A DNA stretch of 64,000 nt from NCBI RefSeq assembly GCF_044704955.1, contig NC_091980.1, positions 13,330,001-13,394,000 on the forward strand, in the 5' to 3' direction. This document shows positions 3,241-61,645 of this stretch, piece by piece; the stretch's first letter is position 1; each line of letters opens with the position of its first letter. Source of the stretch: Pristiophorus japonicus (taxonomy: Eukaryota). A model generated the notes under the pieces. The model had not been told where the DNA came from, did no database searches, and saw nothing but the letters and a program-made list of their open reading frames with translations. Both the position numbers and the translations under genes were made by a program.

Positions 3241-3438
3241 GGTTTTGCTCCCGAATCCATTGGCAATTTTAGACAAAATGAGAAGATTTAAATGAATTAT
3301 TCGAGCGATTCGCATAACGTGCAGGTATTTTTTTTTACATCGTAGCTAAACGATTTTTTTTAAACCTCGTAATAACTGCTCCAGTGTCATGAATGGTGCG
3401 GTCTCGGACTGAGCAAATTCGAATGCTTTACGCTGGAA

Positions 3439-5907
3439 ATGAGATTTAAAATATATTTGTTGCTAAAATGCCAACTATTGTTCTGTGTGTTCTCCACGGG
3501 GAATCTGGTTTCTGGGCAGATTCGTTATTCGATTCCTGAAGAACTGCAACTGGGCGCTTTGGTTGGGAATCTCGCCGCCGATTTGGGTTTAGATGTAAAG
3601 CAGCTCCCGGCTCGCAGTTTGCGGATTGTGCCCGGCTCCAGAAAACAGTTTATGGATGTAAATTTAGACAATGGAATTTTGTTTGTTAAGGAAAAAATTG
3701 ACAGAGAAAATCTTTGCGGGCCGATCCTCAATTGTGTGTTAACTTTGGATGCTGTGCTTGAAAATCCCCTCAATCTGTACCAGGTTGAAGTGGAGATTCT
3801 CGATGTAAATGACAATGCTCCCAGTTTTCCAAAGAACGAGTTCCGCCTTGATATCTTAGAGCTGGCTGCGCCGGGAGCGCGCTTCCCCCTCGAGTCCGCG
3901 CACGATCCGGACATTGGAATCAACTCAGTACAAACCTACCAGCTCCTCCCGAACGATTATTTTAGTCTCGATGTACAAATGCGCAGCGCAGAGGGAACGT
4001 TTCCTGTATTGGTGTTGCAGAGGTCCTTGGATCGAGAAACGGAATCCACCCACAGGCTCACGCTAACTGCCAAAGACGGCGGGGTCCCTGAAAGATCGGG
4101 CACTGCTCAGGTTGCAATCATAGTAACAGATGTTAACGACAACGCGCCTGTTTTCCCACAGTCGGTTTATAGGGTCAGCCTATTGGAAACGGCACCCACA
4201 GGAACCCTGATAATTACGTTAAACACCACTGACTTCGACGATGGTCCCAATGGGGAGATAATATACTCGCTCAGCAGCCATACTTCTGCTAGAACCCGTG
4301 AGTTATTTGACATACATTCCAAAACTGGAGAAATCAGAGTGAAAGGAAATTTGGACTATGAAGAAAGCAGATTACATGAGATTAATATACAAGCTATGGA
4401 CAGGGGGCTTTACGCAATGTCGGGTCTCTGCGATGTGCTGGTGAACATTATTGATGTGAATGATAACGCACCTGAAGTTACGTTGACGTCTTTGTCAAGG
4501 ACAGTGTCTGAAGATGCTCGGCTTGGAACTGTAGTGGCTCTGTTCAGTGCAGCAGACAAAGATTCGGGACAAAATGGGCAGGTACAATGTCAAATTTCAA
4601 ATAAACTGCCCTTCAAACTCCATTCATCTTTGAAGAACTATTATAGATTGCTGATTCAGCATCGACTGGATCGCGAACATACCTCCACGTATGACGTTAC
4701 TATAACGTGCACTGATGCTGGAAAACTTCCACTCACGTCAAAGAAAACCATTCGGGTAGAGGTTTCGGATATAAATGACAACGCACCACGGTTTACGCAG
4801 CCTCTATACACAGCAAACGTGATGGAGAACAACGTTATTGGAGCTTCTATATTCTCCATGACGGCCTTTGATCCAGATGTAGGTCAGAACGCGCGACTGA
4901 ACTATTCTATCATGGAGACTCAAGTTCAGGGTGCCTCAGTAACCAATTATATCGCTATTAACTCAGAGAGTGGTGCCATAATTGCTCAGAGATCGTTTGA
5001 CTATGAGAAATTGAAAACATTTCAGATCCAAGTTCGGGTCCAGGACTCTGGAGTCCCATCACTCGCCAGTAACGTTTCAGTGGATGTTGTTATCCTTGAT
5101 CAGAATGATAATGTTCCAGTCATCGTGCGCCCATTACCCGAGTATGGATCAACAGCAACAGAGACAATCTCCAGGTTTGCAGAACCAGGCTACTTGGTTG
5201 CCAAGGTATCGGCCACAGATGCTGACGCCGGTCAGAATGCTCGTCTTTCTTATCAGATTTTTCAGGCCACCCATCATAATCTTTTTACTATTTCACCAGT
5301 CACGGGAGAAATTTGGACTATCCGTCGTGTTGTGAATAAAGATGCCTCTAAGCAAAGATTGGTGATTGTGGTGAGAGACAATGGCACACCATCCCTCTCT
5401 GCCACAGTGACTATCATCCTATCTGTGGTGGGAAGCGATACTGAAATGTTTTCTAACGTCAGTGTTTTAACTGAACATCCTGGATTTAATTCTGACATGA
5501 GCCTTTCCTTGGTCATCGGCTTAGGGGTAATTTCTGTCATTTTTCTAGTGATTTTGATTATTCTCGCTGTTAAGGTACACAAAAGCAGAAATGGATTGAG
5601 AGGCCAGCACTGTTCCCTCGGTGTTTGTTACTGCTTTCAAACAAGACATTCTCTGAATGGAATTCAAAAGACTAGTAGAAACCTTCAGATACCACCGAAC
5701 TATGTTGAGGTATTCGGGGGTGATCCACTTTCTCAGAGTTTCCGCTACGAGTCATGTTCAACATTGCAGTCAACGAAGAGAGACTTCATGACCCACAACA
5801 CGTGCAGGTCATCTACAGGCAAGAACTATGTCCGGAATGAATCAATCGGGAAATCAAACCCAGAAACAATGAATTCTGTAAATTCCAGCAACACAATAAA
5901 CAATAAG
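3439..5907 (+). CDS. Clustered protocadherin variable exon 1 (823 codons; SP-EC1-6-TM-variable cytoplasmic domain)
   Basis: ORF has a signal peptide then QIRYSIPEE, repeated DRE/DxNDNAP/DxDxG cadherin Ca-binding motifs, a TM segment and PPNYVEVFGGDPLSQSFRY. Donor AAG|GTGAGG at 5907/5908, phase 0. Unspliced ORF stops at 5922. Confidence 0.95.
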
Positions 5908-11550: not shown

Positions 11551-11750
11551 CGTGAGTTTTGTGCAAAAATCCATTGGTAATTTTAGACAAAATGAGAAGA
11601 TTTAAATGAAATAATCCGAGCGATTCACAAAGCGTGCAGGTATTTGGCACAACGCAGCTAACCGATATTTAAAATATTTCCAATTAACTGCTCCAGGGTC
11701 AGGAATGGTGCGGTCCCGTACTGAGCAAATTGGAATGTTTTGCGCTGGAA

Positions 11751-14219
11751 ATGAGATTTAAAATATATTTGTTGTTGAAATGCCAACTATTGTTCTGTGT
11801 GTTCTACTCGTGGAATCTGGTTTATGGGCAGATTCGTTATTCGATTCCTGAAGAACTGCAACTGGGCGCCTTTGTTGGGAATCTCGCCGCCGATTTGGGT
11901 TTAGATGTAAAGCAGCTCCCGGCTCGCAGTTTGCGGATTGTGCCCGGCTCCAGGAAACAGTATGTGGACGTAAATTTAGACAATGGGATTTTGTTTGTTA
12001 AGGAAAAAATAGACAGAGAAAATATTTGCGGGCCGAGCCACGCTTGTGTGTTAATCTTGGATGCTGTGCTTGAAAATCCCCTCAATCTGTACCAGGTTGA
12101 AGTGGAGATTCTTGATGTGAATGACAATGCTCCCAGTTTTCCAAAGGACGAGTTCCGCCTCGAAATCTTAGAGCTTGCGGCGCCGGGAACGCGCTTGCCC
12201 CTCGAGTCCGCGCACGATCCCGACATTGGAACCAACTCAGTACAAACCTACCAGCTCCTCTCAAACGATTATTTTACTCTCGATGTACAGATGCGCAGCG
12301 GGGAAAGACAGCTACCAACATTGGTGATGCAAAAGTCTTTGGATAGAGAAACGGAATCCACCCACAGGCTAACGCTAATAGCTAAGGACGGCGGGGTCCC
12401 TATAAGATCGAGCACGGCTCAGGTTACAATCATAGTAACGGATGTGAACGACAACTCTCCTGTGTTCACCCAGTCTGTTTATAGGGTCAGCCTGTTGGAA
12501 ACTGCACCCAAAGGAACCCTGATAATCTTATTAAACGCCACTGACTTGGACGATGGTCCCAATGGAGAGATAGTGTACTCGATCAACAGCCATAGTTCAA
12601 CTAAAGTCCTCGAACTATTTGACGTGGATTCCAAATCTGGTGAAATCAGAGTGAAAGGGAATTTGGACTATGAAGAAAACAGTGCATTTGAGATTAATAT
12701 ACAAGCAATGGACAAGGGATCTGGCGCAATACCCCAGCATTGTGACGTTGTGGTGAACATTATTGACGTGAATGATAACGCACCTCAAGTGATGTTGAGG
12801 TCTTCATCAAGTACGGTTTCCGAGGACGCTCCGCTTGGGACTGTAGTTGCTCTGTTCAGTGCAGCAGACAAAGATTCGGGAGACAACGGGCAGGTACAAT
12901 GTCAAATTTCAAATACACTGCCCTTCAAACTAGATTCATCTTTGAAGAGCTATTATAGACTGCTTATTCAGCATCGACTGGACCGCGAACATACCTCCAG
13001 GTACGACGTTACTATAACATGCCGGGATGCAGGAAACCCTCCTCTTACATCCAAGAAACCCATTCGGGTAGAGATTTCGGATATAAATGACAACGCACCA
13101 AGGTTTTCGCAGCATTTATACACAGCAAGCGTGATGGAGAACAATGTTATTGGGGCTTCTATATTCACCGTGACAGCCTTTGATCCAGACGTAGGTCAGA
13201 ATGCTCGCCTTAACTACTCTATTCTGGAGACTCAATTTCAGGGCGCCTCAGTAGCCACTTACGTGTTCATTAACTCAGAGAGTGGTGCCTTATTTGCTCT
13301 GAGATCTTTTGACTACGAGCAATTGAAAAACTTTCAGATCAAAGTTCAGGTCCAGGACTCTGGAGTCCCACCACTCGCCAGTAACGTTTCAGTGGATGTT
13401 GCTATCCTTGATCAGAATGACAATATTCCAGTGATCCTGCACCCATTACCCGAGTATGGGTCCACAGCAACAGAGACAATCTCCAGAATTGCAGAACCAG
13501 GCTACTTGGTTGCCAAGGTATCGGCCACTGATGCTGACGCCGGTCAGAATGCTCGTCTTTCGTATCAGATGTTTCAGGCTACCCATCATAACCTTTTTAC
13601 TATTTCACCAGACACTGGAGAAATTTGGACTATCCGTCGTATTTTGAATAAAGATGCTTCCAAGCAAAGATTGGTGATTGTGGTAAGAGACAATGGAACA
13701 CCATCCCTTTCTGCCACTGTGACTATCACCTTATCTGTGGTGGGGAGTGATACTGAAATGTTTTCTAACGTGAGTGATTTAACTGAACACCTTGGATTTT
13801 ATCCTGATATGAGCCTTTCCTTGGTTATCGCCTTAGGGGTCATTTCTATTATTTTTCTGATGATTTTAATTATCCTCGCTGTTAAGATTCATAAAAACAG
13901 AAATGGTTTGGGAGGCCAGCACTGTTCCCTCGGTGTTTGTTGCTGCTTTGAAACAAGAAATTCGCTGAATGGAATTCAAAAGGCCAGTAGAAGCCTTCAG
14001 ATACCACCGAACTATGTTGAGGTATTCGGGGGTGATCCACTTTCTCAGAGTTTCCGCTATGAGTCATGTTCAACATTGCAGTCAACAAAGAGAGACTTTG
14101 TGACCCCCAACACGTGCAGATTATCTATAGGCAAGAACTTTGTTCGGAATGAAGCCATCGGCAAAGAAAACCGATGCGTGATGAATTCTGAAAAATACAG
14201 CAACATTGTAATCAATGAG
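11751..14219 (+). CDS. Clustered protocadherin variable exon 2 (823 codons)
   Basis: First in-frame ATG at 11751 (the ORF track starts at a TTG). Same domain layout. Donor GAG|GTGAGG at 14219/14220. Unspliced stop at 14234. Confidence 0.95.
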
Positions 14220-18506: not shown

Positions 18507-20975
18507 ATGAGATTTAAAATATATTGGTTGCTGAAATGCCAACTATTGTTCAGTGTATTCTCCACGTGGAATTTGGTTTCTGGGCAGATTCGTTATTCGA
18601 TTCCTGAAGAACTGCAACTGGGCGCCTTTGTTGGGAATCTCGCCGCCGATTTGGGTTTAGATGTGGAGCAGCTCCCGGCTCGCAGTTTGCGGATTGTGCC
18701 CGGCTCCAGGAAACAGTATGTGGACGTAAATTTAGACAATGGAATTTTGTTTGTTAGGGAAAAAATAGACAGAGAAAATATTTGCGGGCCGTCACTCACT
18801 TGTGTGTTAATCTTGGATGCGTTGCTTGAAAATCCCTTCAATCTCTACCAGGTTGAAGTGGAGATTCTCGATGTAAATGACAATGCTCCCAGTTTTCCAA
18901 GAGACGAGTTCCGCCTCGAAATATTAGAGCTTGCTGCGCCGGGAGCGCGCTTCCAACTCGAGTCCGCGCATGATCCAGACATTGGAACCAACTCAGTACA
19001 AACCTACCAGCTCCTGCCGAACGATTATTTTATTCTTGATGTACAAATGCGCAGTGGGGAGAGAACATTTCCAGTATTGGTGTTGCAAAAGTCCTTGGAC
19101 AGAGAAACGGAATCCACCCACAGTGTGACGCTAATAGCCGAGGACGGCGGGATCCCTGTAAGATCCGGCACTGCTCAGGTTACAATTAAAGTAAAGGATT
19201 TTAACGACAACTCGCCTGTTTTTCCCCAGTCGGTTTATAGAGTCAGCCTGTTGGAAACCGCACCAACAGGAACCCTGATAATCACATTAAACGCCACTGA
19301 TTTGGACGATGGCTCCAATGGAGAGATAATGTACTCGCTCAGTAGCCTTACTTCTGCGAGAGCCCGTGAAATATTTTACGTAGATTCCAAAACTGGAGAA
19401 ATCAGAATGAAAGAGAATTTGGACTATGAAGAAAGCAGATTCTATGAGATTAATATAGAAGCAATGGACAAAGGGTCTTACGCAATGTCGGGTCACTGTG
19501 ATGTGCTGGTGTATATTATTGACGTGAATGATAACGCACCTGATGTGACGTTGAGGTCTTTGTCAAGTACATTGTCAGAAGATGCTGCAATTGGGACTGT
19601 AGTGGCTCTGCTCAGTGCGGCAGACAAAGACTCGGGACAAAACGGGCAGGTACAATGTCAAATCTCAACTAAACTTCCCTTCGATCTAGTTTCATCTTTG
19701 AAGAACTATTATACGTTAATTATTCAGAAAAAGTTGGATCGCGAAAATATCTCCAAGTATGATGTGACTATAACATGCACTGATGCAGGAAACCCTTCTC
19801 TCGCATCCAAGAAAACCATTCAGGTAGAGGTTTCAGATATAAATGATAACGCGCCAAGGTTTACGCAGCCTCTATACGCGGCAAACTTAATGGAGAACAA
19901 CGTTATTGGGGCCTCTATATTCTCCGTGACAGCTTTCGATCCAGATGTAGGACAGAACGCTCGACTGAACTATTCTCTCCTGGAGACTCAAGTTCAGGGC
20001 GAGTCAGTAATTGGTTATATCGCTATAAACTCAAATAGTGGTGCCTTATTTGCTCTGAGATCTTTTGACTACGAGCAATTGAAAATCTTTCAGATCCAAG
20101 TTCAGGTCCAGGACGCTGGAGTGCCACCACTCGCCAGTAACGTTTCAGTGGATGTTGTTATCCTTGATCAGAATGACAATGTTCCAGTGATTTTGCGCCC
20201 ATTACCCGAGTATGGGTCGACAGCAACAGAGACAATCTCCAGAATTGCAGAACCAGGCTACTTGGTTGCCAAGGTATCGGCCACTGATGCTGATGCCGGT
20301 CAGAATGCTCGTCTTTCTTATCAGATTTTTCAGGCTACCCATCATAACCTTTTTATTATTTCACCAGACACTGGAGAAATTTGGACTATCCGTCGTATTA
20401 TGAATAAAGATGCCTCTAAGCAAAGATTGGTGATTGTGGTGAGAGATAATGGAACACCATCCCTTTCTGCCATTGTCACAATTATCTTATCTGTGGTGGG
20501 AAGTGATACTGAAAAGTTTTCTAACGTGGGTGGTTTAACTGAACACCCTGGATTTAATCCTGATATGAGCCTTTCCTTGGTCATGGCATTAGGAGTAATT
20601 TCTATCATTTTTCTAGTGGTTTTGATTATCCTCGCTGTTAAAGTTCATAAAAGCAGAAATGGATTGGGAGGCCAGCAGTGTTCCCTGGGTGTTTGTTGCT
20701 GCTTTGAAACAGGAAATTCTCTGAATGGACGTCAGAAGGCCGATAGAAATCTTCAGATACCACCGAACTATGTTGAGGTATTCGGGGGTGATCCACTTTC
20801 TCAGAGTTTCCGCTACGAGTCATGTTCAACATTGCAGTCAACAAAGAGAGAATTCTTTAACCCCAACGCATGCCGGTCATCGACAGGCAAGAACAATGTC
20901 AGGAATGAATCTATCGGGAAAGAAAACCGAGGCCTGTTGGATTCTGTAAATTACAGCAATACTGTAAACAATGAG
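18507..20975 (+). CDS. Clustered protocadherin variable exon 3 (823 codons)
   Basis: Same layout. Donor GAG|GTGAGG at 20975/20976. Unspliced stop at 21029. Confidence 0.95.
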
Positions 20976-26228: not shown

Positions 26229-28697
26229 ATGAGATTTAAAAACGATTGCTTGCTAAAATGCCAACTATTGTTCTGTGTAATCTTCTCGTGGAATCCAGTT
26301 TCTGGGCAGATTCGTTATTCGATTCATGAAGAACTGCAACTGGGCGCCTTTGTTGGGAATCTCGCCGCCGATTTGGGTTTAGATGTAAAGCAGCTCTCTG
26401 CTCGCAGTTTGCGGATTGTGCCGGGGCCCAGCAAACAATATGTGGATGTAAATTTGGACAACGGAATTTTGTTTGTCAAGGATAAAATTGACAGAGAACA
26501 GATGTGCGGGCCGGGCATCACTTGTGTGTTAACCTTGGACGTTGTGCTTGCAAAACCTCTCAATCTGTACCAGGTTGAAGTCGAGATTCTCGATGTAAAT
26601 GACAATGCTCCCAGTTTTCCAAAGAACCAGTTCCATCTTGAAATCTCGGAGCTTGTTGCGCTGGAAGCGCGCTTCCCCCTCGAGTCCGCGCACGATCCGG
26701 ACATTGGAACTAACTCAGTACAAACCTACCAGCTCCTCCCGAACGATTACTTTATTCTAGATGTTCAAACCCGCAGCGCCGAGGGAATATTTCCAGTATT
26801 GGTGTTGCAGAGATCCTTGGATAGAGAAACGGAATCCACCCACGAGCTAACGCTAATTGCCGAGGACGGCGGAGTCCCTGTAAGATCGGGCACTGTTCAG
26901 GTTACCATCATCGTAAAGGATGCAAACGACAACGCGCCTGTTTTCTACCAGTCGGTTTATAGGGTCAGCCTGTTGGAAAGCGCACCCACAGGAACCCTGG
27001 TAATCACATTAAACGCAACTGACTTGGACGATGGTCACAATGGGGAGATAATGTATTCGCTCAGTAGCCATAGTTCCGCCAGAGCCCGGGAATTCTTTAA
27101 TGTCGATTCCAAAACTGGTGAAATCAGAGTGAAAGCGAATTTGGACTATGAAGACAGTAATATCTTTGAGATTAATATACAAGCAATTGACAACGGTTTG
27201 AACGCAATGCCTCAGCATTGTGACGTGTTGGTGGACATTATTGATGTGAATGACAACGCACCTGAGGTGACTTTGACGTCTCTGTCAAGTACAGTGTCAG
27301 AAGATGCTCCGCTTGGGACTGTAGTGGCTCTGTTCAGTGCAGCAGACAAAGATTCGGGAGAAAACGGGCAAGTACAATGTCGGGTACCAAATCAACTTCC
27401 CTTCAAACTAGATTCATCTTTGAAGAACTACTATAGACTACTGATTCGTCATCTACTGGATCGCGAAAATATCTCCAGGTATGAAGTTACTATAACATGC
27501 ACTGATGCAGGAAGGCCTCCTCTCACATCCAAGAAATCCATTCGGTTAGAGGTTTCAGATATAAATGACAACGCACCAAGGTTTACGCAGCCTCGATACA
27601 CAGCAAAAGTGAGGGAGAACAACGTGATTGGGGCTTCTATATTCTCAGCGACAGCCTTTGACGCAGATATTGGTCAGAACGCTCGACTGCATTATTTTCT
27701 CCTGGAGACGCACGTTCAGGGCGCCTCCATAGCCAGTTATGTCTCTATTAACTCAGAGAGTGGTGTCATATTTGCTCAGAGATCTTTCGACTACGAGCAA
27801 TTGAAAAACTTTCAGATCCAACTTCAGGTCCAGGACGCTGGAGTCCCACCACTCGCCAGTAATGTTTCAGTGGATGTTGTTATCCTTGATCAGAATGATA
27901 ATGTTCCAGTGATCGTGCGCCCATTACCCGAGTATGGGTCGACAGCAACAGAGAAAATCTCCAGGCTTGCAGAACCAGGCTACTTGGTTGCCAAGGTATC
28001 GGCCACTGATGCTGACGCCGGTCAGAATGCTCGTCTTTCTTACCAGATTTTTCAGGCTACCCATCATAATCTTTTTACTATTTCACCCGACACGGGAGAC
28101 ATTTGGACTATCCGTCGTATTGCAAATAAAGATGCCTCGAAGCAAAGATTGGTGATTGTGGTAAGAGACAATGGAACACCGTCCCTTTCTGCCACTGTGA
28201 CTATCATCCTATCTGTGGAGGGAAGCGATCCTGAAATATTTTCTAATGTGAGCGGTTTAACTGAAGACCCTGAATTTAATTCTGATATGTCCCTTGCCTT
28301 ACTCATTGCCTTAGCGGTAATTTCTACCATTTTTCTACTGATTTTGATTATCCTGGCTGTTAAAGTTCATAACAACAGAAATGCCTTGGGAGGCCAGCAA
28401 TGTTCCCTGGGTGTTTGTTGCTGCTTTGAAACAAGAGATTCTCTGCATGGAATTCAAAAGGCCAGAAGAAATCTTCACATACCACCGAACTATGTTGAGG
28501 TATTCGGGGGTGATCCACTTTCACAGAGTTTCCGCTATGAGTCATGTTCAACATTACAGTCAACAAAGCGAGACTTCATTACCCACAACACCTGCAGATC
28601 ATCTACAGGCAAGAACGATGTCCGGAATGTATCTATCGGGAAGGAAAATCCAGGAATTATGAATTCTGTAAATTGCAGCATTACAGGAAGCAATGAG
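26229..28697 (+). CDS. Clustered protocadherin variable exon 4 (823 codons)
   Basis: ATG at 26229. Donor GAG|GTGAGG at 28697/28698. The 886-aa ORF in the track reads through a CR1 3' fragment inserted just after the donor. Confidence 0.95.
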
Positions 28698-33340: not shown

Positions 33341-35803
33341 ATGAGATTTAAAATTTGGTTGCTAAAATGCCAATTATTGTTCTGTGTGTTCTCGTGGAAT
33401 CCAGTTTCTGCGCAGATTCGTTATTCGATTCCTGAAGAACTGCAACTGGGCGCCTTTGTTGGGAATCTCGCCGCCGATTTGAATTTAGATGTAAAGCAGC
33501 TCTCTGCTCGCAATTTGCGGATTGTGCTCGGCTCCAGGAAACAGTATGTGGACGTAAATTTAGACAATGGAAATTTGTTTGTTAAAGATAAAATTGACAG
33601 AGAAAATCTCTGCGGGCCGAGTCTCACTTGTGTGTTAACCTTGGATGCAGTACTTGAAAACCCTCTCAATCTGTACCAGGTGGAAGTGGAGATTCTCGAT
33701 GTAAATGATAATGCTCCCAGTTTTCCAAAGAAACAGTTCCGCCTTGAAATCTCGGAACTTGCTGCGTCGGGAACGCGCTTCACCCTCGAGTCCGCGCACG
33801 ATCCGGACATTGGAACTAACTCAGTACAAACCTACCAGCTCCTTCAAAATGATTTTTTTATTCTCGATGTACCAATGCGCAGCGGGGAACGGAAATTACC
33901 AATACTGGTGTTGCAAAAGTCCTTGGATAGAGAAACGGAATCCACCCACAGTCTGACGCTAATGGCCAAGGACGGTGGGGTCCCGGTAAGATCGGGCACT
34001 GCTCAGGTTACAATCATAGTAAAGGATGCAAACGACAACACGCCTGCGTTCCCCCAGTCGGTTTACAGGGTCAGCCTGTTGGAAACCGCACCCACAGGAA
34101 CCCTGGTAATCACATTAAACGCCACTGACTTGGACGATGGTCCGAATGGCGAGATAATGTATTCGCTCAGTAGTCATAGTTCGGCGAGGGCCCGTGAACT
34201 ATTTGACGTAGATTCCAAAACTGGAGAAATCAGAGTGAAAGGCCATTTGAATTATGAAGAAAGCAGTGTCTTTGAGATTAACATACAAGCAAAGGACAAG
34301 GGCTCTGACGCAGTGCCTGAGCACTGCGATGTGTTCGTGAACATTATTGACGTGAATGATAACGCACCTCAAGTGATGTTGAGGTCTTTGTCAAGTACGG
34401 TTTCCGAGGACGCTCCGCTTGGGACTGTAGTGGCCCTGTTCAGTGCAGCAGACAAAGATTCGGGAGTAAACGGACAGGTACAATGTGAAATTTCAAACAC
34501 GTTGCCCTTTAAACTAGATTCATCTTTGAAGAACTATTATAGACTGTTGATTCAGCATCGACTGGACCGGGAACATACCTCCAGGTATGACGTTACTATA
34601 ACATGTCGGGATGCAGGAAACCCTTCTCTCACATCCAAGAAAACCATTCGGGTCGAGGTTTCGGATATAAATGACAACGCACCAAGGTTTACGCAACATT
34701 TATACACAGCAAGCGTGATGGAGAACAATGTGATTGGGGCTTCTATATTTTCCGTGACAGCCTTTGATCCAGATGTAGGACAGAATGCTCGACTGAACTA
34801 TTCTCTCACGGAGACACAAGTTGAGGGCGCATCAGTAGCCAGTTATATCGCTATTAACCCAGAGAGTGGTGTCATATTTTCTCAGAGATCTTTTGACTAC
34901 GAGCAATTGAAAAACTTTCAGATCCAAGTTCAGGTCCAGGACTCTGGTGTCCCACCACTCGCCAGTAATGTTTCAGTGGATGTTGTTATCCTTGATCAGA
35001 ATGACAATGTTCCAGTGATCGTGCGCCCGTTACCGGAATATGGGTCAACAGCAACAGAGACAATCTCCAGGTTTGCAGAACCAGGCTACTTGGTTGCCAA
35101 GATATTGGCCACAGATGCTGACGCCGGTCAGAATTCTCGTCTTTCTTACCAGATTTTTCAGGCTACCCATCATAATCTTTTCACTATTTCACCCGACACC
35201 GGAGACATTTGGACTATCCGTCGTATTGTGAGTAAAGATACCTCTAAGCAAAGATTGGTGATTGTGGTAAGAGACAATGGAACACCATCCCTTTCTGCCA
35301 CAGTGACTATCATTCTATCTGTGGTGGGAAGCGATACTGAAATGTCTTCCAACGTCAGTGGTTTAACTGAACGCACTGGATTCAAGCCTGATAAGAGCCT
35401 TTCCTTGGTCATTGCCTTAGGGATAATTTCTATTATTTTTCTAGTGATATTGATTATCCTGGCTGTTAAGGTTCATAAAAGCAAGAATGGTTTGGGAGGC
35501 CAGCACTGTTCCCTGGGTTTTTGTTGCTGCTTTGAAACACGAAATTCTCTGAACGGAATTCAAAAAGCCAGTACAAATCTTCAGATACCACCGAACTATG
35601 TTGAGGTATATGGGGGTGATCCACTTTCGCAGAGTTTTCGCTATGAGTCATGTTCAACATTACAGTCAACGAAGAGAGACTTCATGACCCACAATATATG
35701 CAGGTCATCTACAGACAAGAACTATGTCCGGAATGAATCTATCAGAAAGGAAAATTCAGGAATTATGAATCCTGTAAATTGCAGCAACTCAGTAAGCAAT
35801 GAG
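33341..35803 (+). CDS. Clustered protocadherin variable exon 5 (821 codons)
   Basis: ATG at 33341; signal peptide two codons shorter. Donor GAG|GTAAGG at 35803/35804. Unspliced stop at 35815. Confidence 0.95.
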
Positions 35804-40623: not shown

Positions 40624-43089
40624 ATGAAATTTAAAATATACTGTTTGCTGAAATGCCAACTATTGTTCTGTGTGTTCTCCACGTGGAATCTCGTTTCCGG
40701 GAGGATTCATTATTCGATTCCTGAAGAGCTGGAATTGGGCGCCTTTGTTGGGAATCTCGCCGCCGATTTGGGTTTAGATGTAAAGCAGCTCCCGGCTCGC
40801 AGTTTGCGGATTGTGCCGGGACCCAGCAAACAGTATGTGGACGTAAATTTAAACAATGGAATTTTGTTTGTCAAGGATAAACTTGACAGAGAACAGATTT
40901 GCCGGCCAAGCCTGACTTGTGTGTTAACCTTGGACGTTGTGCTTGAAAATCCTCTCAATTTGTACCAGGTGGAAGTGGAGATTCTCGATGTGAACGACAA
41001 TGCTCCCAGTTTTCCACAGGACGAATTCCGCCTTGAAATCTCGGAGCTTGCTGCGCCGGGAGCGCGCTTCCCCCTCGAGTCCGCGCACGATGCGGACATT
41101 GGAACCAACTCAGTACAAATCTACCAGCTCCACCCGAACTACTATTTTATTCTCGATGTACCAATGCGCAGCGGGGAAAGGAAGTGGCCAGTGTTGGTTT
41201 TGCAGAGATCCTTGGATAGAGAAACGGAATCCACCCACAGGCTGACGCTAATTGCCAAGGACGGCGGGGTCCCTGTAAGATCGGGCACTGCTCAGGTTAC
41301 AATCATAGTAAAGGATGAAAACGACAACGCGCCCGTGTTCCCCCAGTCGGTTTATAGGGTCAGCCTGTTGGAAACGGCTGCCACAGGAACCCTGATAATA
41401 ATATTAAACGCCACTGACTTGGACGATGGCTCCAATGGAGAGATAATGTATTCATTCAGTAGCCATACTTCTGCGAAAGCCCGTCAATTGTTTGATCTGG
41501 ATTCGAAAACTGGTGAAATCAGAGTCAAAGGGGACTTGGACTATGAAGAAAGTAGTGTCTTTGAAATTAATATACAAGCGATGGACAAGGGCTCTGGCGC
41601 AATACCCCAGCATTGTGATGTTTTGGTAAATATTATTGACGTGAATGATAACGCACCTGAGGTCACCTTGACATTTTCGTTAAGTAAAGTGTCAGAAGAT
41701 GCTCCGCTCGGGACTGTAGTGGCTCTGTTCAGTGCAGCAGACAAGGACTCGGGACAAGACGGGCAGGTACAATGTCAGATATCAAACAAGCTGCCCTTTA
41801 AACTAGATTCATCTTTGAAGAACTATTATAGACTGCTGATTCAGCATCTTTTGGATCGCGAAAATATCTCCAGGTATGACGTGACTATAACATGCCGGGA
41901 TGCAGGAAACCCTCCTCTCACATCCAGGAAAGCAATTCGGGTAGAGGTTTCGGATATAAATGACAACGCACCACGGTTTACGCAGCCTCTATACACAACA
42001 AACGTGATGGAGAACAACGTTATTGGGGCTTCCATATTCTCCGTGACAGCCCATGATCCAGATTTAGGACAGAACGCTCGACTCAACTATTCTCTCCTGG
42101 AAACTCAAGTTCAGGGCGCCTCAATAGCCAGGTATATCGCTATAAACACAAAGAGTGGTATCATATTTGCTCAGAGATCTTTTGACTACGAGCAATTGAA
42201 AAGCTTTCAGATCCAAGTTCAGGTCGAGGACTCTGGAGTCCCAACACTCACCAGTAACGTTTCAGTGGATGTTGTCATCCTTGATCAGAATGACAATGTT
42301 CCAGTGATCGTGCGCCCATTACCCGAGTATGGGTCAACAGCAACAGAGACAATATCCAGGCATGCAGGACCAGGCTACTTGGTTGCCAAGGTATCGGCCA
42401 CGGATGCTGACGCCGGTCAGAATGCTCGTCTTTCATACCAGATTTTTCAGGCTACCCATCATAATCTTTTTACTATTTCACCCGACACTGGAGAAATTTG
42501 GACTATCCGTCGTATTGTGAATAAGGATGCCTCTAAGCAAAGATTGGTGATTGTGGTAAGAGACAATGGAACACCATTCCTTTCGGCCACTGTGACAATT
42601 ATCTTATCTGTGTTGGGAAGTGATAAAATGTCTTCTAACGTGAGTGGTTTAACTGAAGACCGTGGAATTTATCCTGATATGAGCCTTTCCTTGGTCATCG
42701 CCTTAGGAGTAATTTCTATCATTTTTCTGCCGATTTTGATTATCCTCGCTCTTAAAGTTCATAAAAGCAGAAATGGCTTGGGAGGCCAGCAGTGTTCCCT
42801 GGATGTTTGTTGCTGCTTTCAAACACGAAATTCTCTGAATGGAATTCAGAAGGCCAGTAGAAGCCTTCAGATACCACCGAACTATGTTGAGGTATTCGGG
42901 GGTGATCCCCTTTCTCAGAGTTTCCGCTACGAGTCATGTTCAACATTGCAGTCAACAAAGAGAGACTTCATGACCCGCAACACCTGTAGGTCATCTACAG
43001 GCAAGATGTATGTTCAGAATGAATCTATTGGAAAAGAAACCCCAGGAATGATGAATTCTGACAATTACAGCAACACTGTAAACAATGAG
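40624..43089 (+). CDS. Clustered protocadherin variable exon 6 (822 codons)
   Basis: ATG at 40624. Donor GAG|GTGAGG at 43089/43090. Unspliced stop at 43104. Confidence 0.95.
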
Positions 43090-47485: not shown

Positions 47486-49942
47486 ATGGGATATTATCAA
47501 ATAAATTGGCAACTGTTGTATTCTATTTGCCTCTTCTGGATTGTAGTCTCTGGGCAGATTCGCTATCAGATTCCTGAAGAACTGCAGCTAGGCGCCTTTG
47601 TTGGAAATATCGCAAATGATCTGGGATTACGGACAAAACAGCTCTCGGCTCGAAATTTTCGGATTGTGCCCGGTCCCCGGAAGCAGTATTTGGAGGTAAA
47701 TTTAGACAATGGGATTTTGTTTGTGAAAGAAAAAATTGACAGGGAGCAGCTCTGTGGGTCGGGCCTCACATGCATGTTGCCTTTGGAGACCGTGATCGAA
47801 AACCCCTTGACCGTGTACCACATTGAAGTGGAGATTCTCGATATAAACGACAACGCTCCCACGTTTCCGAATAGCCAGTTTCGCCTTAAAATCTCCGAGC
47901 TTGCTGCGCCGGGAGCGCGCTTCGCCCTGGAGTGCGCGCACGACCCGGACGTTGGAACCAACTCCCTGCAAACCTACCAGCTGGCTGCTAACGAATATTT
48001 CGATTTAAATATTGATTCGCGGGGTGGGGACGGAAAGTTACCAGTATTGGTGCTGGAACGGCCCTTGGACAGAGAACAGCAAGCGACCCACAGGTTAGGA
48101 CTAATTGCCAAGGACGGTGGGATTCCTGTAAAGTCGGGCACTGCTGAAATAATAATTATAGTGCAAGATGAAAATGACAACGCGCCCGTCTTCCCAAATT
48201 CAGATTACAGAATTAGCCTGTTAGAAAACGCACCCAAAGGAACCTTGCTTATCAAATTAAACGCCACTGATTTAGATGAAGGTCCCAATGGAGAGATATT
48301 GTACTCTTTTAGTAGTCATACCTCTGTTAGAGTCCGTGAGCTATTTACTGTGGATTCAAAAACTGGTGAAATCAGAGTTAAAGGAAATTTGGATTATGAA
48401 GAAGAAAGTGTTTTTGAAATTAACATACAGGCGCTGGACCAGGGCATTAATCCAAACCCCGGATATTGTCACATTCTGGTTAACATTATCGATGCTAATG
48501 ATAACGCACCTGAGATGACACTAACCTCTTTGTTCAGTCCTGTCAGTGAAGACTCCAAACCCGGGACTGTGGTTGCTCTAATCAGTGTATCAGACAAAGA
48601 TTCGGGAGAGAATGGGCAGATAAAATGTGAAATCGCAAACAACCTGCCTTTCAGCCTAGATTCTTCACTGAGAAACTATTACCGATTGCTCACTCGGCAG
48701 CTGCTGGATCGAGAAAATATCTCAAAGTATGACGTTGCTGTCATCTGCAGTGACTCGGGATCTCCTCCACTCGAATCTAGGAAAAGCATTCCAGTTCAAA
48801 TTTCGGATATAAATGACAACGCGCCACGCTTTACGCAGACTTCCTATACAGCTTACGTGACGGAGAACAACGTGATTGGGACTTCAATCTTTGCAGTGAC
48901 GGCTCTTGATGCAGATTTAAACCTCAACTCCCGATTATGCTACTCTATCCTCGAAAGCCAGGTTCAGAGCGAGCCGGTGTCCACTTATGTCAATATCAAT
49001 TCCAGAAATGGTGTCATATTTTCTCAGAGAACTTTTGATTATGAGCAACTCAAAAGCTTTCAGATCCAGGTCCAGGCACAGGACTCTGGAGTCCCACCAC
49101 TCACCAGTGACGTTTCGGTGGATATAATTGTCCTGGATCAGAATGACAATGCCCCGGTGATCATGCACCCTTTCACGGAGTACGGCTCAACAGCGTTGGA
49201 GACAGTATCCAGGTTTGCAGAGCCGGGCTACCTGGTTACTAAGGTAACGGCCACAGATGCTGACTCGGGCCAGAATGCTCGGCTCTCTTACCAGATTCTC
49301 CAGTCGACTGACCCTGGACTGTTCACCATCTCGTCTGATACAGGGGACATCTGGACAATCCGTGGCTTCGCGGGCAGAGATGCGAATAAGCAAATGCTGG
49401 TTGTCGCGGTAAACGACAATGGGACCCCGGCGCTTACTTCTACAATGACACTCCTCTTGTCAGTGGTGGAGGGCGATACAGAAATGCTCTCTGATATGGG
49501 CAATTTATCTGAAGATCTCGGGTTGACTCATGATATAAGCTTTTACTTAGTTATATCTTTGGGGATAATCTCGTCCATTTTTCTCGTCGTTTTAATTGTT
49601 CTTGCTATTACAGTCCACAAAAACAGGAGTGGTTTTGGTGGCTATTCCTGTGCCCTGGATATGTGCTGTTGTTTTCGAGCTAGGAACTCGCTGAACGGGA
49701 GTCAGAAAGCCAGTAGGAATATCCAGATCCCTCCGAACTACGTTGAAGTATTTGGGGGCGATCCACTTTCTCAAAGTTTCCGCTACGGGACCTGTTCGAC
49801 TTCAGATTTGACCAAGGGAGAGTTTTTGTTCTCCAACAGGTGCCGTTTGTCTACCGGCAAGAATAATATCGGCATCGAAAATACGTGGAATAAAGATAAG
49901 CCACAAGCATTACATTCTCCCAATTGTAGAAACATTAGTGAG
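47486..49942 (+). CDS. Clustered protocadherin variable exon 7 (819 codons; divergent subgroup)
   Basis: ATG at 47486 (gcgATGg). Six EC repeats, TM, PPNYVEVFGGDPLSQSFRY. Donor GAG|GTGAGA at 49942/49943. Confidence 0.95.
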
Positions 49943-53462: not shown

Positions 53463-53504
53463 ATTGTCATCAGCCTAAAGATTAGCAAATATAAGATTTT
53501 AAAA

Positions 53505-54985: not shown

Positions 54986-55199
54986 GGTTGCAGCCGTTTT
55001 CGCGGAAACATCTATTGGGGATTTTAGCCACAAAATGGAGACTTTTCTGAAACAATCTCGACGATTTCTTAAAAAGCAAAGGTATTTTTCTGCACTGCAG
55101 CCTTTCTAGTGAAGAAATTAGGCGTAAATTATTTTAATCTAAGGTTGAACCGAACGTCACGGAGCCGCGCTGAAGCAATTGGAATGTTTAACACTGGCA

Positions 55200-57665
55200 A
55201 TGAGATGTTACAACATATTTTGTTTTATAAAATGGGAACTGCTATATTGCATGTTTATCTCCTGGAAAGGAGTTTCAGGAGAGATTCGTTATTCGATTCC
55301 TGAAGAATTGCAACTGGGCGCCTTTGTTGGGAACATTGCGGACGATTTGGGATCAGATGTAAAGCAGCTCTCGGCTCGGAATTTTCGACTTGTGTCAGAT
55401 TCAAAAAAGCAGTATCTGGAAGTACATTTAGACAATGGGATTCTGTTTGTCAAGGAAAGAATTGACAGAGAAGAGCTATGTGGGCCGAGCCTCACTTGTG
55501 TCCTGTCTATGGAGGCCGTGCTTGAAAATCCTCTTAACCTGTACCAAATCGAGGTGGATATTCTGGATATAAACGACAACGCACCCCGTTTTCCAAAGAG
55601 CCAGTTCCGCCTTGAAATCTCCGAGCTTGCTGCGCCGGGAGCGCGCTTCGCCCTGGAGTGCGCGCACGATCCGGACGTTGGACCCAACTCGGTGCAAACC
55701 TACCAGCTGATTGCAAATGAATACTTCGTGCTTAATGTTGAGGCGGGCATTCGAGATGGGAAGTTGCCAATGTTAGTGCTGGAAAAGCCTCTGGACAGAG
55801 AGAAGCGGTCGACGCACCGGTTACTGCTACTAGCCAAAGACGGCGGGGTCCCCGAAAGGTCTGGCACTGCTCAGATCAACATCGTACTGGAAGATGCCAA
55901 CGACAACGCGCCGGTTTTCCCTCAATCCGTTTACAGGATCGAACTACCAGAAAATGTGACCAAAGGAACTTTGGTACTGCAGGTAAATGCCACTGATTTG
56001 GATGAAGGCTCCAATGGAGAGATTGTGTACTCTTTCAGTAGCCATACCTCTGCTAGAGTCCGTAAACAGTTTACTTTGGATTCCAAAAGTGGTGAAATAC
56101 GAGTTAAAACGAATTTGGACTATGAGGAGCATAGTGTATTTGAGATTATTATACAAGCAAAGGACAATGGGGCTCACGCAACCCCAGTTAACTGCCACGT
56201 TGTATTGAACATTATTGATGTAAATGATAATGCACCTGAGGTGACACTGACTTCGTTATCTAGCCCAATTCCCGAAGACTCGCTGCCTGGAACTGTAGTG
56301 GCTCTGATCAGTGCGTCAGACAGAGATTCCGGTGAAAATGGGCAGCTGCGATGCCGAGTCGGAAATAATCTTCCTTTCGCGCTGGATTCATCCTCGAAGA
56401 AGTACTTACGATTGCTTACGCAGGACCCGCTGGACCGCGAATCCGCCTCCACGTTTAACGTTACCGTCACCTGCAGTGACGGGGGAAGCCCGCCTCTCAC
56501 AGCCAACAAAACCATCCCGGTTGAAGTTTCGGACAGAAATGACAACGCGCCGCAATTTGCGCAACCTGTCCTTACAGCATACGTGATGGAGAACAATAAT
56601 ATTGGCGCGTCCATTTTCTCAGTGACAGCATTTGATGCGGACATAGACCAGAATGCTCGGCTATCCTATGCTATCCTGGACAGTCGGGTTCAGGGCGAAT
56701 CAGTAAGCAATTATGTCTATATTAATTCAGAGAATGGTATTATATATTCCTATAGATCTTTTGACTATGAACAATTAAAAAACTTTCGGATCCAAGTTCG
56801 GGCACATGACCGTGGAGTCCCACCACTCGCCAGCAACGTTTCCATAGACATCATTATCCTTGATCAGAATGACAATGCCCCAGTGATCGTGTATCCATTA
56901 AGCGAGTATGGGTCAACAGCGACAGAGACTCTGTCGCGTTTTGCGGAACCAGGGTATCTGGTGGTCAAGATGGCGGCCACTGATGCCGACTCTGGACAAA
57001 ATGCTCGGCTCTCCTACCAGATCATCCATGCTACCAAATCGGGACTGTTTACTATTTCATCGGACACGGGCGAAATATGGACAGCCCGTGATATTGCAAA
57101 GACAGATTCATCCAAGCAGAGGTTGGTCATCCTGGTAAGTGACCATGGGACACCAGCACTTTCTGCCACAATGTCGATCACATTGTCAGTGGTTGAGGGC
57201 GATGCAGAAATGCTCTCAGGCAGAAGCAGTCTGCCCGAAAACCGTGACTTCGCTTCTGATACAAGCCTTTACTTGGTCATATCTTTAGGAATAATCTCGT
57301 CCATTTTTCTGGTGGTTTTAATTATTCTAGCTGTTAAAGTTCATAAAAACCGAAATGCCTTCGGTGGCCACAACTGTGCTTTGGGTCCATGTTGCTGCTT
57401 TGAATCAAGGCATTCGATGAATGGAATTCAGAAAGCCAGACGTAACCTTCAGATCCCTCCCAACTATGTTGAAGTATTTGGAGGCGATCCTCTTTCTCAA
57501 AGTTTCCGCTATGAGACATGTTCAACGTCACGTTCGATAAAGAGAGACTTCTTGTTCCCCAACACGTGCAGTTCGTCGACAGGCAAGAATCAAGCCAAGA
57601 GCGGAATCATTGCAAACGGAGGAAAATCAGCATTTTCAAATTCTGAAAACTCTATACATCGTGAG
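55200..57665 (+). CDS. Clustered protocadherin variable exon 8 (822 codons; divergent subgroup)
   Basis: ATG at 55200. Donor GAG|GTGAGG at 57665/57666. Unspliced stop at 57692. Confidence 0.95.
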
Positions 57666-58759: not shown

Positions 58760-58980
58760 TAGATTTTACATTGCACAGCAATAAATGCTACTATTGCGCA
58801 AAGATTGAGGAAGGCAGTGCAGCTTTAAGAAATGCTCAGCGTCGTGATAGGCTGAATGAAAGTCAACCTTTTTCCACCAATGAAAAGCTGTAATGTGACT
58901 GGAGATCCTTGCTGCGTAACCCTCCCCTTCCGCCATTATATACGACCAGATACCGTGTAACATTGGGTAAAGCTGCGTGT
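58760..58980 (+). promoter_or_regulatory. Putative promoter of exon 9
   Basis: TTGCACAG 58771, TTGCGCAA 58794, AGCTTTAAG 58821, ATAGG 58847, CCAAT 58877, GACTGGAGATC, GTGTAACATTGG. Confidence 0.7.
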
Positions 58981-59194
58981 CGCTACATTAGCTTCTCTAC
59001 ATTCATCCATTGGCGATTTTAGAATAATTAAGGTTTGTCAGAATAATTACGCAGATTTTGTTTAAAGTACGTTTGTTTTTTTTAGGCAATACTAGCTGTT
59101 TTAATCAAAATGGAAACATAATTGACTCTTTTTCCCAGGAATTATTCAACGGCGCCGCGTTGTGCTCAGTCACTCGAAATGCTTTGTGCTGGAA

Positions 59195-61645
59195 ATGGAG
59201 CATTATAAAATATATTGGTTATTGAAATGGCAACTTTTATATTCTATCATCTCTTCCTGGGAACTAGTTTCTGGACAGATACGATACTCGATTCCTGAAG
59301 AGCTGAACGTGGACGCCTTTGTTGGGAATATCGCAGAGGATTTAGGTTTGGATATTAATGATCTCTCGGCTCGCGGCTTTCAGATTGTGTCTGGCCCCAG
59401 TAAGCAGTATATGGACGTAAATTTAGACAATGGGATTCTGTTTGTGAAGGAAACAATGGACAGAGAAATGCTCTGTGGGCCGAGCCTCGCTTGCACATTG
59501 TCCTTGGAAGCCGTGATCGAAAATCCCCTGAATGTGTACCATTTTCAAGTGGAGATTCTGGATGTAAATGACAACGCTCCGAGTTTCCCTGAGAGCCAGT
59601 TACGTCTGGAAATCTCGGAGGTGGCCGCCCCGGGAACGCGCTTTGCCCTGGAGTGCGCGCACGACCCGGACGTTGGCAGCAACTCGGTGCAAAGCTACCA
59701 GCTGGCAGCCAACGGCTACTTCGCTCTCGATGTCGAGACGCGCGGCGGGGACGGAAAGTTGCCGGTCTTAGTCTTGGAAAGACCTCTGGACAGGGAACAG
59801 GAGAGCACCTACAGGTTAGTGTTAACTGCTAGGGACGGAGGGTCCCCTGAGCGATCTGGCACGGCTCAAATATTGATTGCGATCGAGGATGCCAACGACA
59901 ACGCACCTGTTTTCCCACAGTCGGTGTATAGGGTCAGCTTGCTGGAGAATGTGCCCACAGGAACCTTGGTGACCAAAGTAGCCGCCTCTGATTTGGATGT
60001 AGGTCTCAATGGACAGGTAGTGTATTCGTTTAGCAGTCATACCTCCAATAGAGTCCGTGAACTGTTTGGTCTGGATTCAAAAACGGGTGAAATCAGAATT
60101 AAGAAGAATTTGGACTATGAAGAAAACAGTGTTTTTGAGATTAATGTACAAGCCAAGGACAAGGGAGCTCACGCAACCCCTGCTTACTGTCATGTGGTGG
60201 TTGACATCGTTGACGTGAATGACAACGCACCTGAGGTGACACTCACATCTATATTCAGTCCTATCGGCGAAGACTCCCTCCCCGGTACTGTGGTGGCCCT
60301 GATCAGCTCAACAGACAAAGACTCGGGAGAAAACGGACACGTGCATTGTCAAATCCCAAATGAACTCCCTTTCAAACTAGATTCGTCCTTAAATAACTAT
60401 TACAGATTAGTTACCCGGGAGACATTGGACCGCGAGCATGTACCAAACTACAGTGTCGCCATCGTATGCAGTGATGCCGGAATCCCTCCACTCACATGCA
60501 ACAAAACTATCCGGGTGGAGGTATCAGATATAAATGACTACTCGCCGCACTTTGCGCAGCCTTTATATACAGCTTACATGATGGAGAACAACGCTATCGG
60601 CGCGTCCATATTCTCGGTGGCTGCTTTCGATCCAGATTTAAGTCAGAACGCTCGCCTGTCCTACTTCATCCTGGAGACTCTGATTCAGGGCAATTCCGTA
60701 TCCACTTATGTCTCCATTAACTCGCACAGCGGTGTCATATTTTCTCGGAGAACTTTCGACTACGAGCAACTCAAAAACTTTCAGCTCCAAGTTCAGGCCT
60801 GGGATTCCGGAGTCCCACCACTTTCCGGCAACACTTCAGTGGATGTTATTATCCTTGATCAGAATGACAACGCCCCCGTGATCGTGCACCCATTGCCCGA
60901 GTTCGGCTCCACTGTGTTAGAGACGTTATCCCGCTTCGCAGAGCCGGGCTACCTGGTTGCTAAAGTCTCTGCTACTGACAGCGACACGGGCCAGAATGCT
61001 CGACTTACGTACCAGATTCTCCAAGCTACTGACGCTGGCCTCTTCACCATTTCCCCAGATACGGGAGAAATCTGGACCATCCGCGGTATTGTGAAGCATG
61101 ACGCCACGAAGCAAAGGTTGTTAATCGGTGTTAAAGACAATGGATCACCGCCACTTACAGCCACCGCCACATTCCTCCTGTCTGTGGTTGGAACCGATAA
61201 ACAAATGCTCTCCGATGTGAGCAGTTTGTCCGAAGATCCCGGCTTCGTTTCTGATATCAGCTTTTACCTGGTCATAACGTTAGGAGTCATCTCGTCCATT
61301 TTCCTGGTGATTTTGATTGTTCTCGCTATTAAGGTCCACAAAAGCTTTTCTCTAGAGACGTGTGGCTGTTTTGCAGCAAGGAACTCGCTACATGGCGTTC
61401 AAAGAGGTGGCAGAAACCTACAGATACCACCGAACTATGTTGAAGTGTTTGGGGGTGATCCGCTTTCTCAGAGTTTCCGCTATGATACATGCTCATCTTC
61501 ACATTCCACCAAGAGAGAGTTCACCTTATCCAACAGGTGTAGTGCGTCTACGCGTAAGAATAACGTCCCGAGTGGCACTTTGGCGAATAGAGACACCCCA
61601 CGAACACCAAACTCTGCGCAATACAAGGTCACTGCCAATAATGAG
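59195..61645 (+). CDS. Clustered protocadherin variable exon 9 (817 codons; divergent subgroup)
   Basis: ATG at 59195. Donor GAG|GTGAGG at 61645/61646. Shortened juxtamembrane segment. Unspliced stop at 61690. Confidence 0.95.

What the first reader, a model, noticed from the sequence alone, without database searches (positions are those of the whole stretch)
3393..59208. Out-of-frame upstream ATG exactly 16 nt before the start codon in all nine protocadherin genes (conserved overlapping uORF)
Seen: uATGs at 3423, 11735, 18491, 26213, 33325, 40608, 47470, 55184 and 59179, each at main ATG minus 16. The uORF overlaps the true start. It reads M(L/F)(Y/C)(A/K)GNEI* in genes 1-6 and MLCAGNGAL* in gene 9, and runs 35 and 39 codons in genes 7 and 8. 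In the same frame at -46 there is an ATG in genes 1-6 (3393, 11705, 18461, 26183, 33295, 40578) and ACG in genes 7-9. The 46-nt interval has the same length and no stop in any copy. In the protein frame the A of the uATG is a wobble base that stays invariant while its codon changes (GAA/GGA/CAA/AAA), favouring selection on the ATG itself. 8 of 9 uATGs have a purine at -3. Established: overlapping uORFs repress main-ORF translation and force leaky scanning. Inference: a cluster-wide translational dampener that could equalise or gate isoform dosage, a layer I do not know to be described for cPcdh.
Basis: partly seen in the sequence, partly recalled or inferred. Interest (0 to 1): 0.7.

Follow-up and report, generated by a model that had tools for sequence, protein, structure and literature searches.

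The report
Ancient decoy start in shark protocadherins
One family of shark nerve-cell identity genes keeps an out-of-frame "decoy" start codon exactly 16 bases before the real one in all 21 intact copies examined, which likely turns down how much protein each gene makes; it is a known kind of control and is absent from the rest of the gene cluster.

Summary
An out-of-frame ATG sits at main ATG -16 in 9 of 9 window genes and in 12 of 12 further intact paralogues of the same clade. The clade is the Pcdh-nu group beside the constant exons of a shark protocadherin cluster. The ATG is the only invariant triplet in 240 leader columns, while both neighbouring bases change 6-7 times. The peptide is not conserved. 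Eight of 8 informative annotated proteins from other sharks and rays fit the same ATG.

- It is not cluster-wide (0 of 39 other intact genes).
- The -46 ATG is confined to one recent subclade.
- The 'wobble' argument is void, because the leader is not coding.

Best reading (0.6): a selected overlapping uORF start that dampens translation by leaky scanning, possibly also mRNA level via NMD. Translation was not tested.

New lead: the same clade has lost the CGCT/CTCF promoter element that 36 of 39 other genes keep. This is one shared event, so it is a correlation only. Verdict: new member of a known kind; interest 0.4.

The parts
3423..3449 (+). g1 overlapping uORF (uATG at -16, 8 codons, TAA ends at +11)
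11735..11761 (+). g2 overlapping uORF, 8 codons
18491..18517 (+). g3 overlapping uORF, 8 codons
26213..26239 (+). g4 overlapping uORF, 8 codons
33325..33351 (+). g5 overlapping uORF, 8 codons
40608..40634 (+). g6 overlapping uORF, 8 codons
47470..47577 (+). g7 overlapping uORF, 35 codons
55184..55303 (+). g8 overlapping uORF, 39 codons
59179..59208 (+). g9 overlapping uORF, 9 codons
3389..3395 (+). g1 ATGs at -50 (7-codon uORF ending at the TGA at -29) and -46 (in frame with the -16 uORF); restricted to the recent subclade, not conserved clade-wide
3439..5907 (+). g1 Pcdh-nu variable exon coding part (signal peptide, 6 cadherin repeats, cytoplasmic start); donor-like GT at 5908 inferred by motif
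11751..14219 (+). g2 variable exon coding part (3' end inferred by donor motif)
18507..20975 (+). g3 variable exon coding part (3' end inferred by donor motif)
26229..28697 (+). g4 variable exon coding part (3' end inferred by donor motif)
33341..35803 (+). g5 variable exon coding part (3' end inferred by donor motif)
40624..43089 (+). g6 variable exon coding part (3' end inferred by donor motif)
47486..49942 (+). g7 variable exon coding part (3' end inferred by donor motif)
55200..57665 (+). g8 variable exon coding part (3' end inferred by donor motif)
59195..61645 (+). g9 variable exon coding part (3' end inferred by donor motif)
3086..3216 (+). g1 promoter-like block, repeated before all nine genes: GCTTTAAG box (3086), decayed CSE/CGCT site just before CCAAT (3141), initiator-like CAGTGTAA (3209, inferred transcription start about 230 nt before the main ATG)
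   Evidence: initiator label recalled from the consensus, not measured
3325..3384 (+). g1 leader stretch between a donor-like CAG|GTATTT and an acceptor-like AG, 60 nt; possible ultra-short leader intron, unproven; it would not remove the -16 ATG

Best explanation
The ATG 16 nt before the start codon is an old feature of one Pcdh-nu clade, invariant in all 21 intact copies examined, and it likely acts as the start of an overlapping out-of-frame uORF that would divert part of the scanning ribosomes and so lower protocadherin output. Shown: position, frame, invariance across paralogues, free change of the peptide, restriction to one clade. Inferred: (a) the site lies in the mRNA, with a start near -230. 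(b) Its middling context (purine at -3 in 19 of 21, pyrimidine at +4 in 18 of 21) lets some ribosomes leak to the main ATG, whose -3 G is invariant. (c) Ribosomes that start at -16 stop at +11 to +14 in 19 of 21 genes, past the main ATG, so ordinary forward re-initiation is excluded. (d) That early stop lies far upstream of the junctions to the constant exons and could also trigger NMD. At 16 nt the two ATGs are near the edge of the range in which close AUGs compete in yeast, so a partial, fixed damping is expected rather than an on/off switch.
For: 21 of 21 intact clade genes have ATG at exactly -16 with no indel between it and the main ATG. It is the only invariant triplet in -240..-1; columns -17 and -13 change 6 and 7 times; the only other invariant runs of 3 or more are the GCTTTAAG box, CCAAT, ATC and the main ATG. 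Of 4 triplets invariant in the nine window genes, only ATG stays invariant in all 21. +4 takes all four bases and uORF codons 2-4 change non-synonymously. Broken copies keep ATG at -16 in 5 of 8 against 21 of 21 intact (Fisher p 0.015). 8 of 8 informative annotated proteins from 7 other shark and ray species have Cys (7) or Trp (1) at codon -5, preceded by E, Q, G or K, all compatible with xxA TG; they group with several different paralogue lineages. Run X1 looks like RNA: one contig matches the first constant exon from its acceptor AG to its donor and runs on unlike. One X1 contig spans 3315-3557 without a gap, across -46, -16 and the main ATG. No RNA structure covers the site. Mechanism by analogy: PMC9743702 (abstract and section 9 read; yeast data), PMC4890304 (passages read).
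Against: No ribosome, reporter or cap-mapping data; translation from the site is untested. The out-of-sample test is only borderline once slow sites are allowed (0.057 with gamma rates; (18/51)^3 = 0.044 from the counts). The flanks are also fairly slow (TT at -21/-20 and TT at -12/-11 change 1 time each; -33..-1 averages 2.5 changes against 3.45 further up), as a longer DNA or RNA motif would give. The protein evidence cannot tell A from G at -16 and only shows genes whose main frame is open. The three pseudogenes without ATG at -16 are the most diverged ones, and two of them keep an ATG at a shifted spacing. These leaders hold 2-6 ATGs in 200 nt, so -16 may add little in genes with many. X1 is not on record as RNA, is contigs only, and the spanning contig is a paralogue mix (6 differences).
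Confidence: 0.6

Rival explanations
1. The ATG is the core of a longer DNA or RNA element (about TTGGRATGYTTT), such as a downstream promoter element, protein-binding site or splicing enhancer, and is kept for binding, not for initiation.
For: -23, -21, -20, -12 and -11 change only once each. The whole LKQL[EG]CFxLEM-coding stretch is recognisable in other sharks and rays. The clade lacks the usual CSE and could use a substitute element, as a CSE-less frog subgroup carries another motif (PMC4978886, passages read).
Against: The bases touching the ATG on both sides vary most (6 and 7 changes, all four bases at -13). TEAD-like GGAATG or ETS-like GGAA/GGAT cores (motifs recalled) are broken in g1, g3, g6, g9 and L010 while ATG stays. 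No conserved structure there.
Confidence: 0.2
2. Passenger: the ancestor happened to have an ATG here and it survived by descent, slow local mutation or gene conversion reaching out from the signal-peptide region.
For: An ATG within 30 nt of a start is common by chance in this composition (about 4.3 expected per 200 nt). The out-of-sample p is about 0.05. Twelve of the 21 genes form one recent expansion.
Against: Leader tree length is 4.5 substitutions per site, and triplet retention is 7e-4 even with rate variation. Neighbouring bases differ among paralogues, which conversion would have evened out. Retention in several lineages older than the shark-ray split. Vertebrate uATGs are depleted near coding starts (PMC4890304, passages read), so loss should be favoured.
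Confidence: 0.12
3. The last 30 nt of the leader are coding in the protein frame (CTG-started extension LKQLECFVLE), so TG is kept as a Cys codon.
For: CTG at -30 in 18 of 21; slight excess of third-position changes in -30..-1 (my sums: 3.0 against 1.8 and 2.1); Cys in 7 of 8 foreign records.
Against: In-frame stops after -30 in intact genes L008 (-15, the 'Cys' codon itself is TGA) and L012 (-24), and a frameshifting insertion in L005. TGG in L004, L006 and Narcine. The invariant A at -16 would be a free third position.
Confidence: 0.04
4. The site belongs to splicing of the leader: donor-like (-112) and acceptor-like (-55) signals define a short intron or join leaders across genes, and the ATG is part of the exon that follows.
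For: AG ending at -53..-58 in 20 of 21 and donor-like sites in 17 of 21 by pattern, 54-65 nt apart. Several automatic gene models use this AG.
Against: Neither signal is invariant. No joint was listed in the leader, and one contig crosses the stretch unspliced. Splicing would not explain why exactly ATG is fixed.
Confidence: 0.04

Closest known systems
Overlapping out-of-frame uORFs (oORFs / uAUGs) of vertebrate mRNAs
   Same: AUG upstream of and out of frame with the main start, ending inside the coding sequence; peptide not conserved; middling context. Repression and depletion near coding starts are described in PMC4890304 (passages read).
   Different: Here the same position is fixed across 21 tandem paralogues and apparently across sharks and rays; no translation data exist for this case.
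Competition between closely spaced AUGs (Brownian-ratchet scanning, PMC9743702)
   Same: Out-of-frame uAUG within 30 nt; weaker inhibition as the distance shrinks; NMD of such mRNAs in yeast (abstract and section 9 read).
   Different: Measured on synthetic yeast libraries; the ~17 nt limit was stated for downstream AUGs; no natural vertebrate gene family with a fixed spacing appears in the parts read.
Cartilaginous-fish protocadherin-nu subcluster
   Same: The 21 genes form one clade (support 0.999) with Callorhinchus nu8, nu9, nu13, nu15, nu17 and lie just before the constant exons.
   Different: No leader or uATG description found in the searches run; the original elephant shark paper was not held, so nothing of it was seen.
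CSE-less clustered protocadherins (mammalian alpha-c2, beta-1, gamma-c4, gamma-c5; Xenopus gamma2 15-36)
   Same: Promoters without the CGCT-box CTCF site (PMC7811963, PMC4978886, passages read); like C-type genes (position recalled), the clade sits next to the constant exons.
   Different: Here a whole expanded clade of 21 intact genes shows decay of the site; orthology to C-type genes was not tested, and expression mode is unknown.

Membership tests
overlapping uORF | AUG upstream of the main start, out of frame, with its stop downstream of the main start | tested here: met
   21 of 21 intact genes; stop ends at +11 or +14 in 19, +92 and +104 in 2
overlapping uORF | Lies inside the mature mRNA leader | tested here: inconclusive
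   RNA-like contigs cover 3170-5983 and one spans 3315-3557; run not on record as RNA, contigs cannot show starts; promoter-like block lies more than 200 nt upstream
overlapping uORF | Is translated and lowers main-ORF translation | not testable with these tools
   needs initiation profiling or reporters
conserved regulatory uAUG | Start codon better conserved than flanks, peptide not conserved | tested here: met
   the out-of-sample p is borderline (0.003-0.057)
conserved-peptide uORF | Peptide sequence and length under purifying selection | tested here: not met
   codons 2-4 vary non-synonymously; length 8-39 aa
clustered protocadherin, nu subcluster | Tandem ~2.4 kb variable exons with signal peptide, Cadherin_2 plus cadherin repeats, upstream of shared constant exons | tested here: met
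clustered protocadherin, nu subcluster | Groups with named Callorhinchus nu proteins | tested here: met
   (FastTree support 0.999; only nu references were included)
CSE-bearing (CTCF-chosen) protocadherin promoter | CGCT-box element about 200-330 nt before the start codon | tested here: not met
   TGTGTCGCTGT with at most 2 mismatches in 5 of 21 clade genes against 36 of 39 others; CGCT at the homologous place only in L003 and g4
   0 of 39 intact genes outside the clade

The most novel reading that the evidence does not exclude
One ancient protocadherin-nu clade swapped control layers. It lost the CTCF/CGCT promoter element that drives stochastic promoter choice, is therefore expressed broadly like C-type genes, and caps its surface dose with a fixed decoy start codon at -16 (leaky scanning plus NMD), kept for hundreds of millions of years in sharks and rays.
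Probability: 0.15. Interest if true: 0.7.

Novelty: new member of a known kind. Interest (0 to 1): 0.4.

Why it matters
Clustered protocadherin control is studied mostly as promoter choice by CTCF (the topic of most papers listed). A start codon fixed across a whole paralogue clade would point to a translational layer that sets isoform dose, and it gives a natural series for testing competition between close AUGs. The coincidence with loss of the CTCF element makes a clear, testable question. Limits: overlapping uORFs are a common kind of element, the nu subcluster has no orthologue in bony vertebrates (PMC2764143, passages read), and no function is shown.

Tried and rejected
RNA runs: no RNA holder was listed; the one run, X1, has no library record and is contigs only. 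It gave no cover of the L009 5' end, which is no evidence. Binned depths would fit higher-depth contigs ending near the donor-like site at about 3325, but contigs cannot show ends, so this was not used.

RNA structure over -16: none predicted; only a weak hairpin further up, -3.1 kcal/mol, on 7 of the 9 window genes.

Protein searches: the search on the L009 extension found nothing. The representative search gave 4 hits and no new informative record.

Other clades: no invariant ATG besides the main start in four other clades (13, 9, 10 and 4 genes).

Literature: 8 searches. Searches combined protocadherin with uORF, upstream AUG or translation terms; no listed title or abstract start concerned a uORF in clustered protocadherins, and one search returned 0 papers. 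Searches found no paper on elasmobranch promoters or leaders among those listed. The library lacks most subscription papers, and the elephant shark cluster paper was not held, so 'not in print' is unproven. No supplements were read.

Earlier scan notes: none.

Rejected: -46 as a conserved start; the wobble argument; 'cluster-wide'; a conserved uORF peptide.
Full report
Setting. The window is G000:C4:13330001-13394000. It holds nine tandem + strand ORFs of 823-879 aa; the three scanned carry Cadherin_2, five Cadherin matches and Cadherin_C_2. The closest named relatives are shark, ray and chimaera protocadherins. The genome search reported 114 matches from 150 of 298 candidates scored, so the cluster list may be incomplete. 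I fetched 80 further variable-exon loci on the same contig and 200 kb downstream, where constant exons start about 7 kb after the last variable exon, L009. Start codons were assigned for 80 of 89 exons; 9 broken or unclear ones were left out; 60 have ORFs of 760 aa or more.

Observation. All coordinates and peptides check out.

Extent. ATG at -16 is present in 21 of 21 intact genes between 13.20 and 13.40 Mb and in 0 of the 39 other intact genes; 6 of those 39 have some overlapping out-of-frame ATG within 40 nt, at -11, -14, -22 or -25. The 21 genes form one clade (support 0.999) with Callorhinchus nu8, 9, 13, 15 and 17. So the feature marks one nu clade, not the cluster. Of 8 broken copies in the clade, 5 keep ATG at -16, two have an ATG at -14 or -8, and one has ATT (Fisher p 0.015). 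The three deviants are also the most diverged copies. Two broken copies have lost the main ATG and kept the upstream one.

Chance. In the 21 intact genes, 18 of 240 leader columns are invariant and ATG(-16..-14) is the only invariant triplet. Columns -17 and -13 change 6 and 7 times by parsimony; the mean is 3.3. Other invariant runs are the GCTTTAAG box, CCAAT, ATC and the main ATG, and the GG at -4/-3 is invariant too. Under GTR with gamma rates (tree length 4.5) a given triplet survives in all tips with probability 7e-4. For the 12 genes outside the window, given the nine, the figure is 0.057 with gamma rates and 0.003 with one rate; 18 of 51 columns invariant in the nine stay invariant in all 21. 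The result is beyond chance overall and borderline out of sample. The flanks -23..-10 are also slower than average, which keeps a longer-motif reading alive.

Other species. No DNA of other sharks could be fetched, so I used annotated proteins whose models run on upstream of the main Met. Among 156 proteins, 8 records from other species give six or more colinear residues: Pristis (2), Narcine, Heptranchias, Rhincodon, Cetorhinus, Scyliorhinus canicula and S. torazame. All 8 have Cys (7) or Trp (1) at codon -5, that is TG at -15/-14, after E, Q, G or K, which can all end in A. Dropped: three records that match this genome's own genes (P0121-P0123), three whose models join in elsewhere (P0125, P0128, P0129) and four with extensions of three residues or fewer (P0001, P0038, P0060, P0061). 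A and G at -16 cannot be told apart, and only open frames are visible. The records pair with different paralogues (L009, L012, L010, L011/L014, L008, the g1-g6 group), so the feature likely predates the shark-ray split (some 250-300 million years, recalled).

What is not conserved. The uORF peptide varies in codons 2-4 and in length, 8-39 aa. At -46 there is ATG in 9 of 21, ACG in 5 and other triplets in 7; all nine ATGs are in the recent subclade, and ACG to ATG is the expected CpG decay (inference). The protein frame upstream of the main ATG is closed at -15, -24 or -30 in three intact genes, so the wobble argument does not apply, although its conclusion survives on other grounds.

Is it in the mRNA? 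A promoter-like block lies 220-370 nt upstream in all nine genes, with an initiator-like CAGTGTAA at -222 to -244 (label recalled). Run X1 has no library record. Its contigs cover bins 3170-5983 and not 2768-3169 or 5984-6500, and one spans 3315-3557 without a gap. Another matches the first constant exon from acceptor AG to donor and then runs on unlike, as a spliced transcript would. This is a hint that -16 is transcribed, not a mapped start.

Mechanism. Best reading (0.6): a leaky, overlapping uORF. Context is purine at -3 in 19 of 21 and pyrimidine at +4 in 18 of 21. The frame ends at +11 or +14 in 19 of 21, past the main ATG. In yeast, out-of-frame upstream AUGs inhibit less as they approach the main AUG and lower mRNA through NMD (PMC9743702, abstract and section 9). 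[quoted passage not shown] Leaders of this clade hold 4.3 ATGs per 200 nt against 4.3 expected from shuffles; the other 39 hold 2.5 against 3.8. All steps from ribosome use onward are inferred. Rivals: motif core (0.2), passenger (0.12), CTG-started extension (0.04), splicing signal (0.04).

An unexpected correlate. The element TGTGTCGCTGT just before CCAAT, invariant in one other clade and carrying the CGCT box described as the CTCF-binding CSE (PMC7811963 and PMC4978886, passages), is matched with at most 2 mismatches in 36 of 39 other intact genes but only 5 of 21 clade genes; the shuffle baseline is about 4%. At the homologous place CGCT survives only in L003 and g4. The motif was derived from the other clades, which favours them. 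Loss of the CSE and presence of the uATG map to one clade, so this is one coincidence, not 21. In mammals three of the five C-type genes lack the CSE, and C-type genes are reported as constitutively expressed in cerebellar and cerebral neurons. That suggests the novel case (0.15): broad expression capped at translation.

Novelty. Eight literature searches listed no paper on a uORF in clustered protocadherins, judged from listings and abstract starts. The elephant shark paper was not available, and no supplements were read. PMC2764143 was seen as passages.

Verdict: real and probably selected; a new member of a known kind; clade-specific; function untested. Interest 0.4.

Noticed in passing
promoters of all nine genes, e.g. 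window 3127-3137 (g1); L003, L005, L008-L014: The CGCT-box CSE (CTCF site) kept by 36 of 39 other intact cluster genes has decayed in this clade (5 of 21 within 2 mismatches; CGCT only in L003 and g4), while the GCTTTAAG and CCAAT boxes stay invariant.
   Followed up: partly
window 3325-3384 (g1) and the same place in the paralogues (-110..-118 to -53..-58): Donor-like xAG|GTAT (17 of 21 by pattern) and acceptor-like AG (20 of 21) flank an AT-rich, indel-rich 54-65 nt stretch: a possible ultra-short leader intron or two unpaired splice sites. Automatic gene models in several sharks and rays use this AG to fuse neighbouring genes.
   Followed up: partly
window 3086-3093 and homologous places in other clades: A GCTTTAAG box lies upstream of the CCAAT boxes, about 120 nt before the inferred start, and is invariant or nearly so in three of the four other clades aligned; too far up to be this promoter's TATA box, role unknown.
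   Followed up: no
window 3409-3412 (g1, -30..-27) and paralogues: CTGA is nearly invariant: an in-frame CTG at -30 (18 of 21) overlapping a TGA at -29 that closes the 7-codon uORF from the -50 ATG.
   Followed up: partly
L015, L018: Two broken nu copies have the main ATG changed to ATT while the -16 ATG is intact.
   Followed up: no
L074-L077 (G000:C4 about 11.43-11.60 Mb): At least four variable exons lie on the - strand inside an otherwise + strand cluster, two with intact ORFs and CSE: a local inversion or an assembly feature.
   Followed up: no
G000:C4 10.49-13.48 Mb: The cluster spans about 3 Mb with at least 89 variable-exon-like loci, of which 60 were scored intact and roughly a third are broken or unclear.
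   Followed up: no
L006; also P0001, P0060: An in-frame ATG at -9 gives a three-residue extension (MLEM) in one paralogue and in a Mobula record, arising from the variable -9/-8 columns.
   Followed up: no
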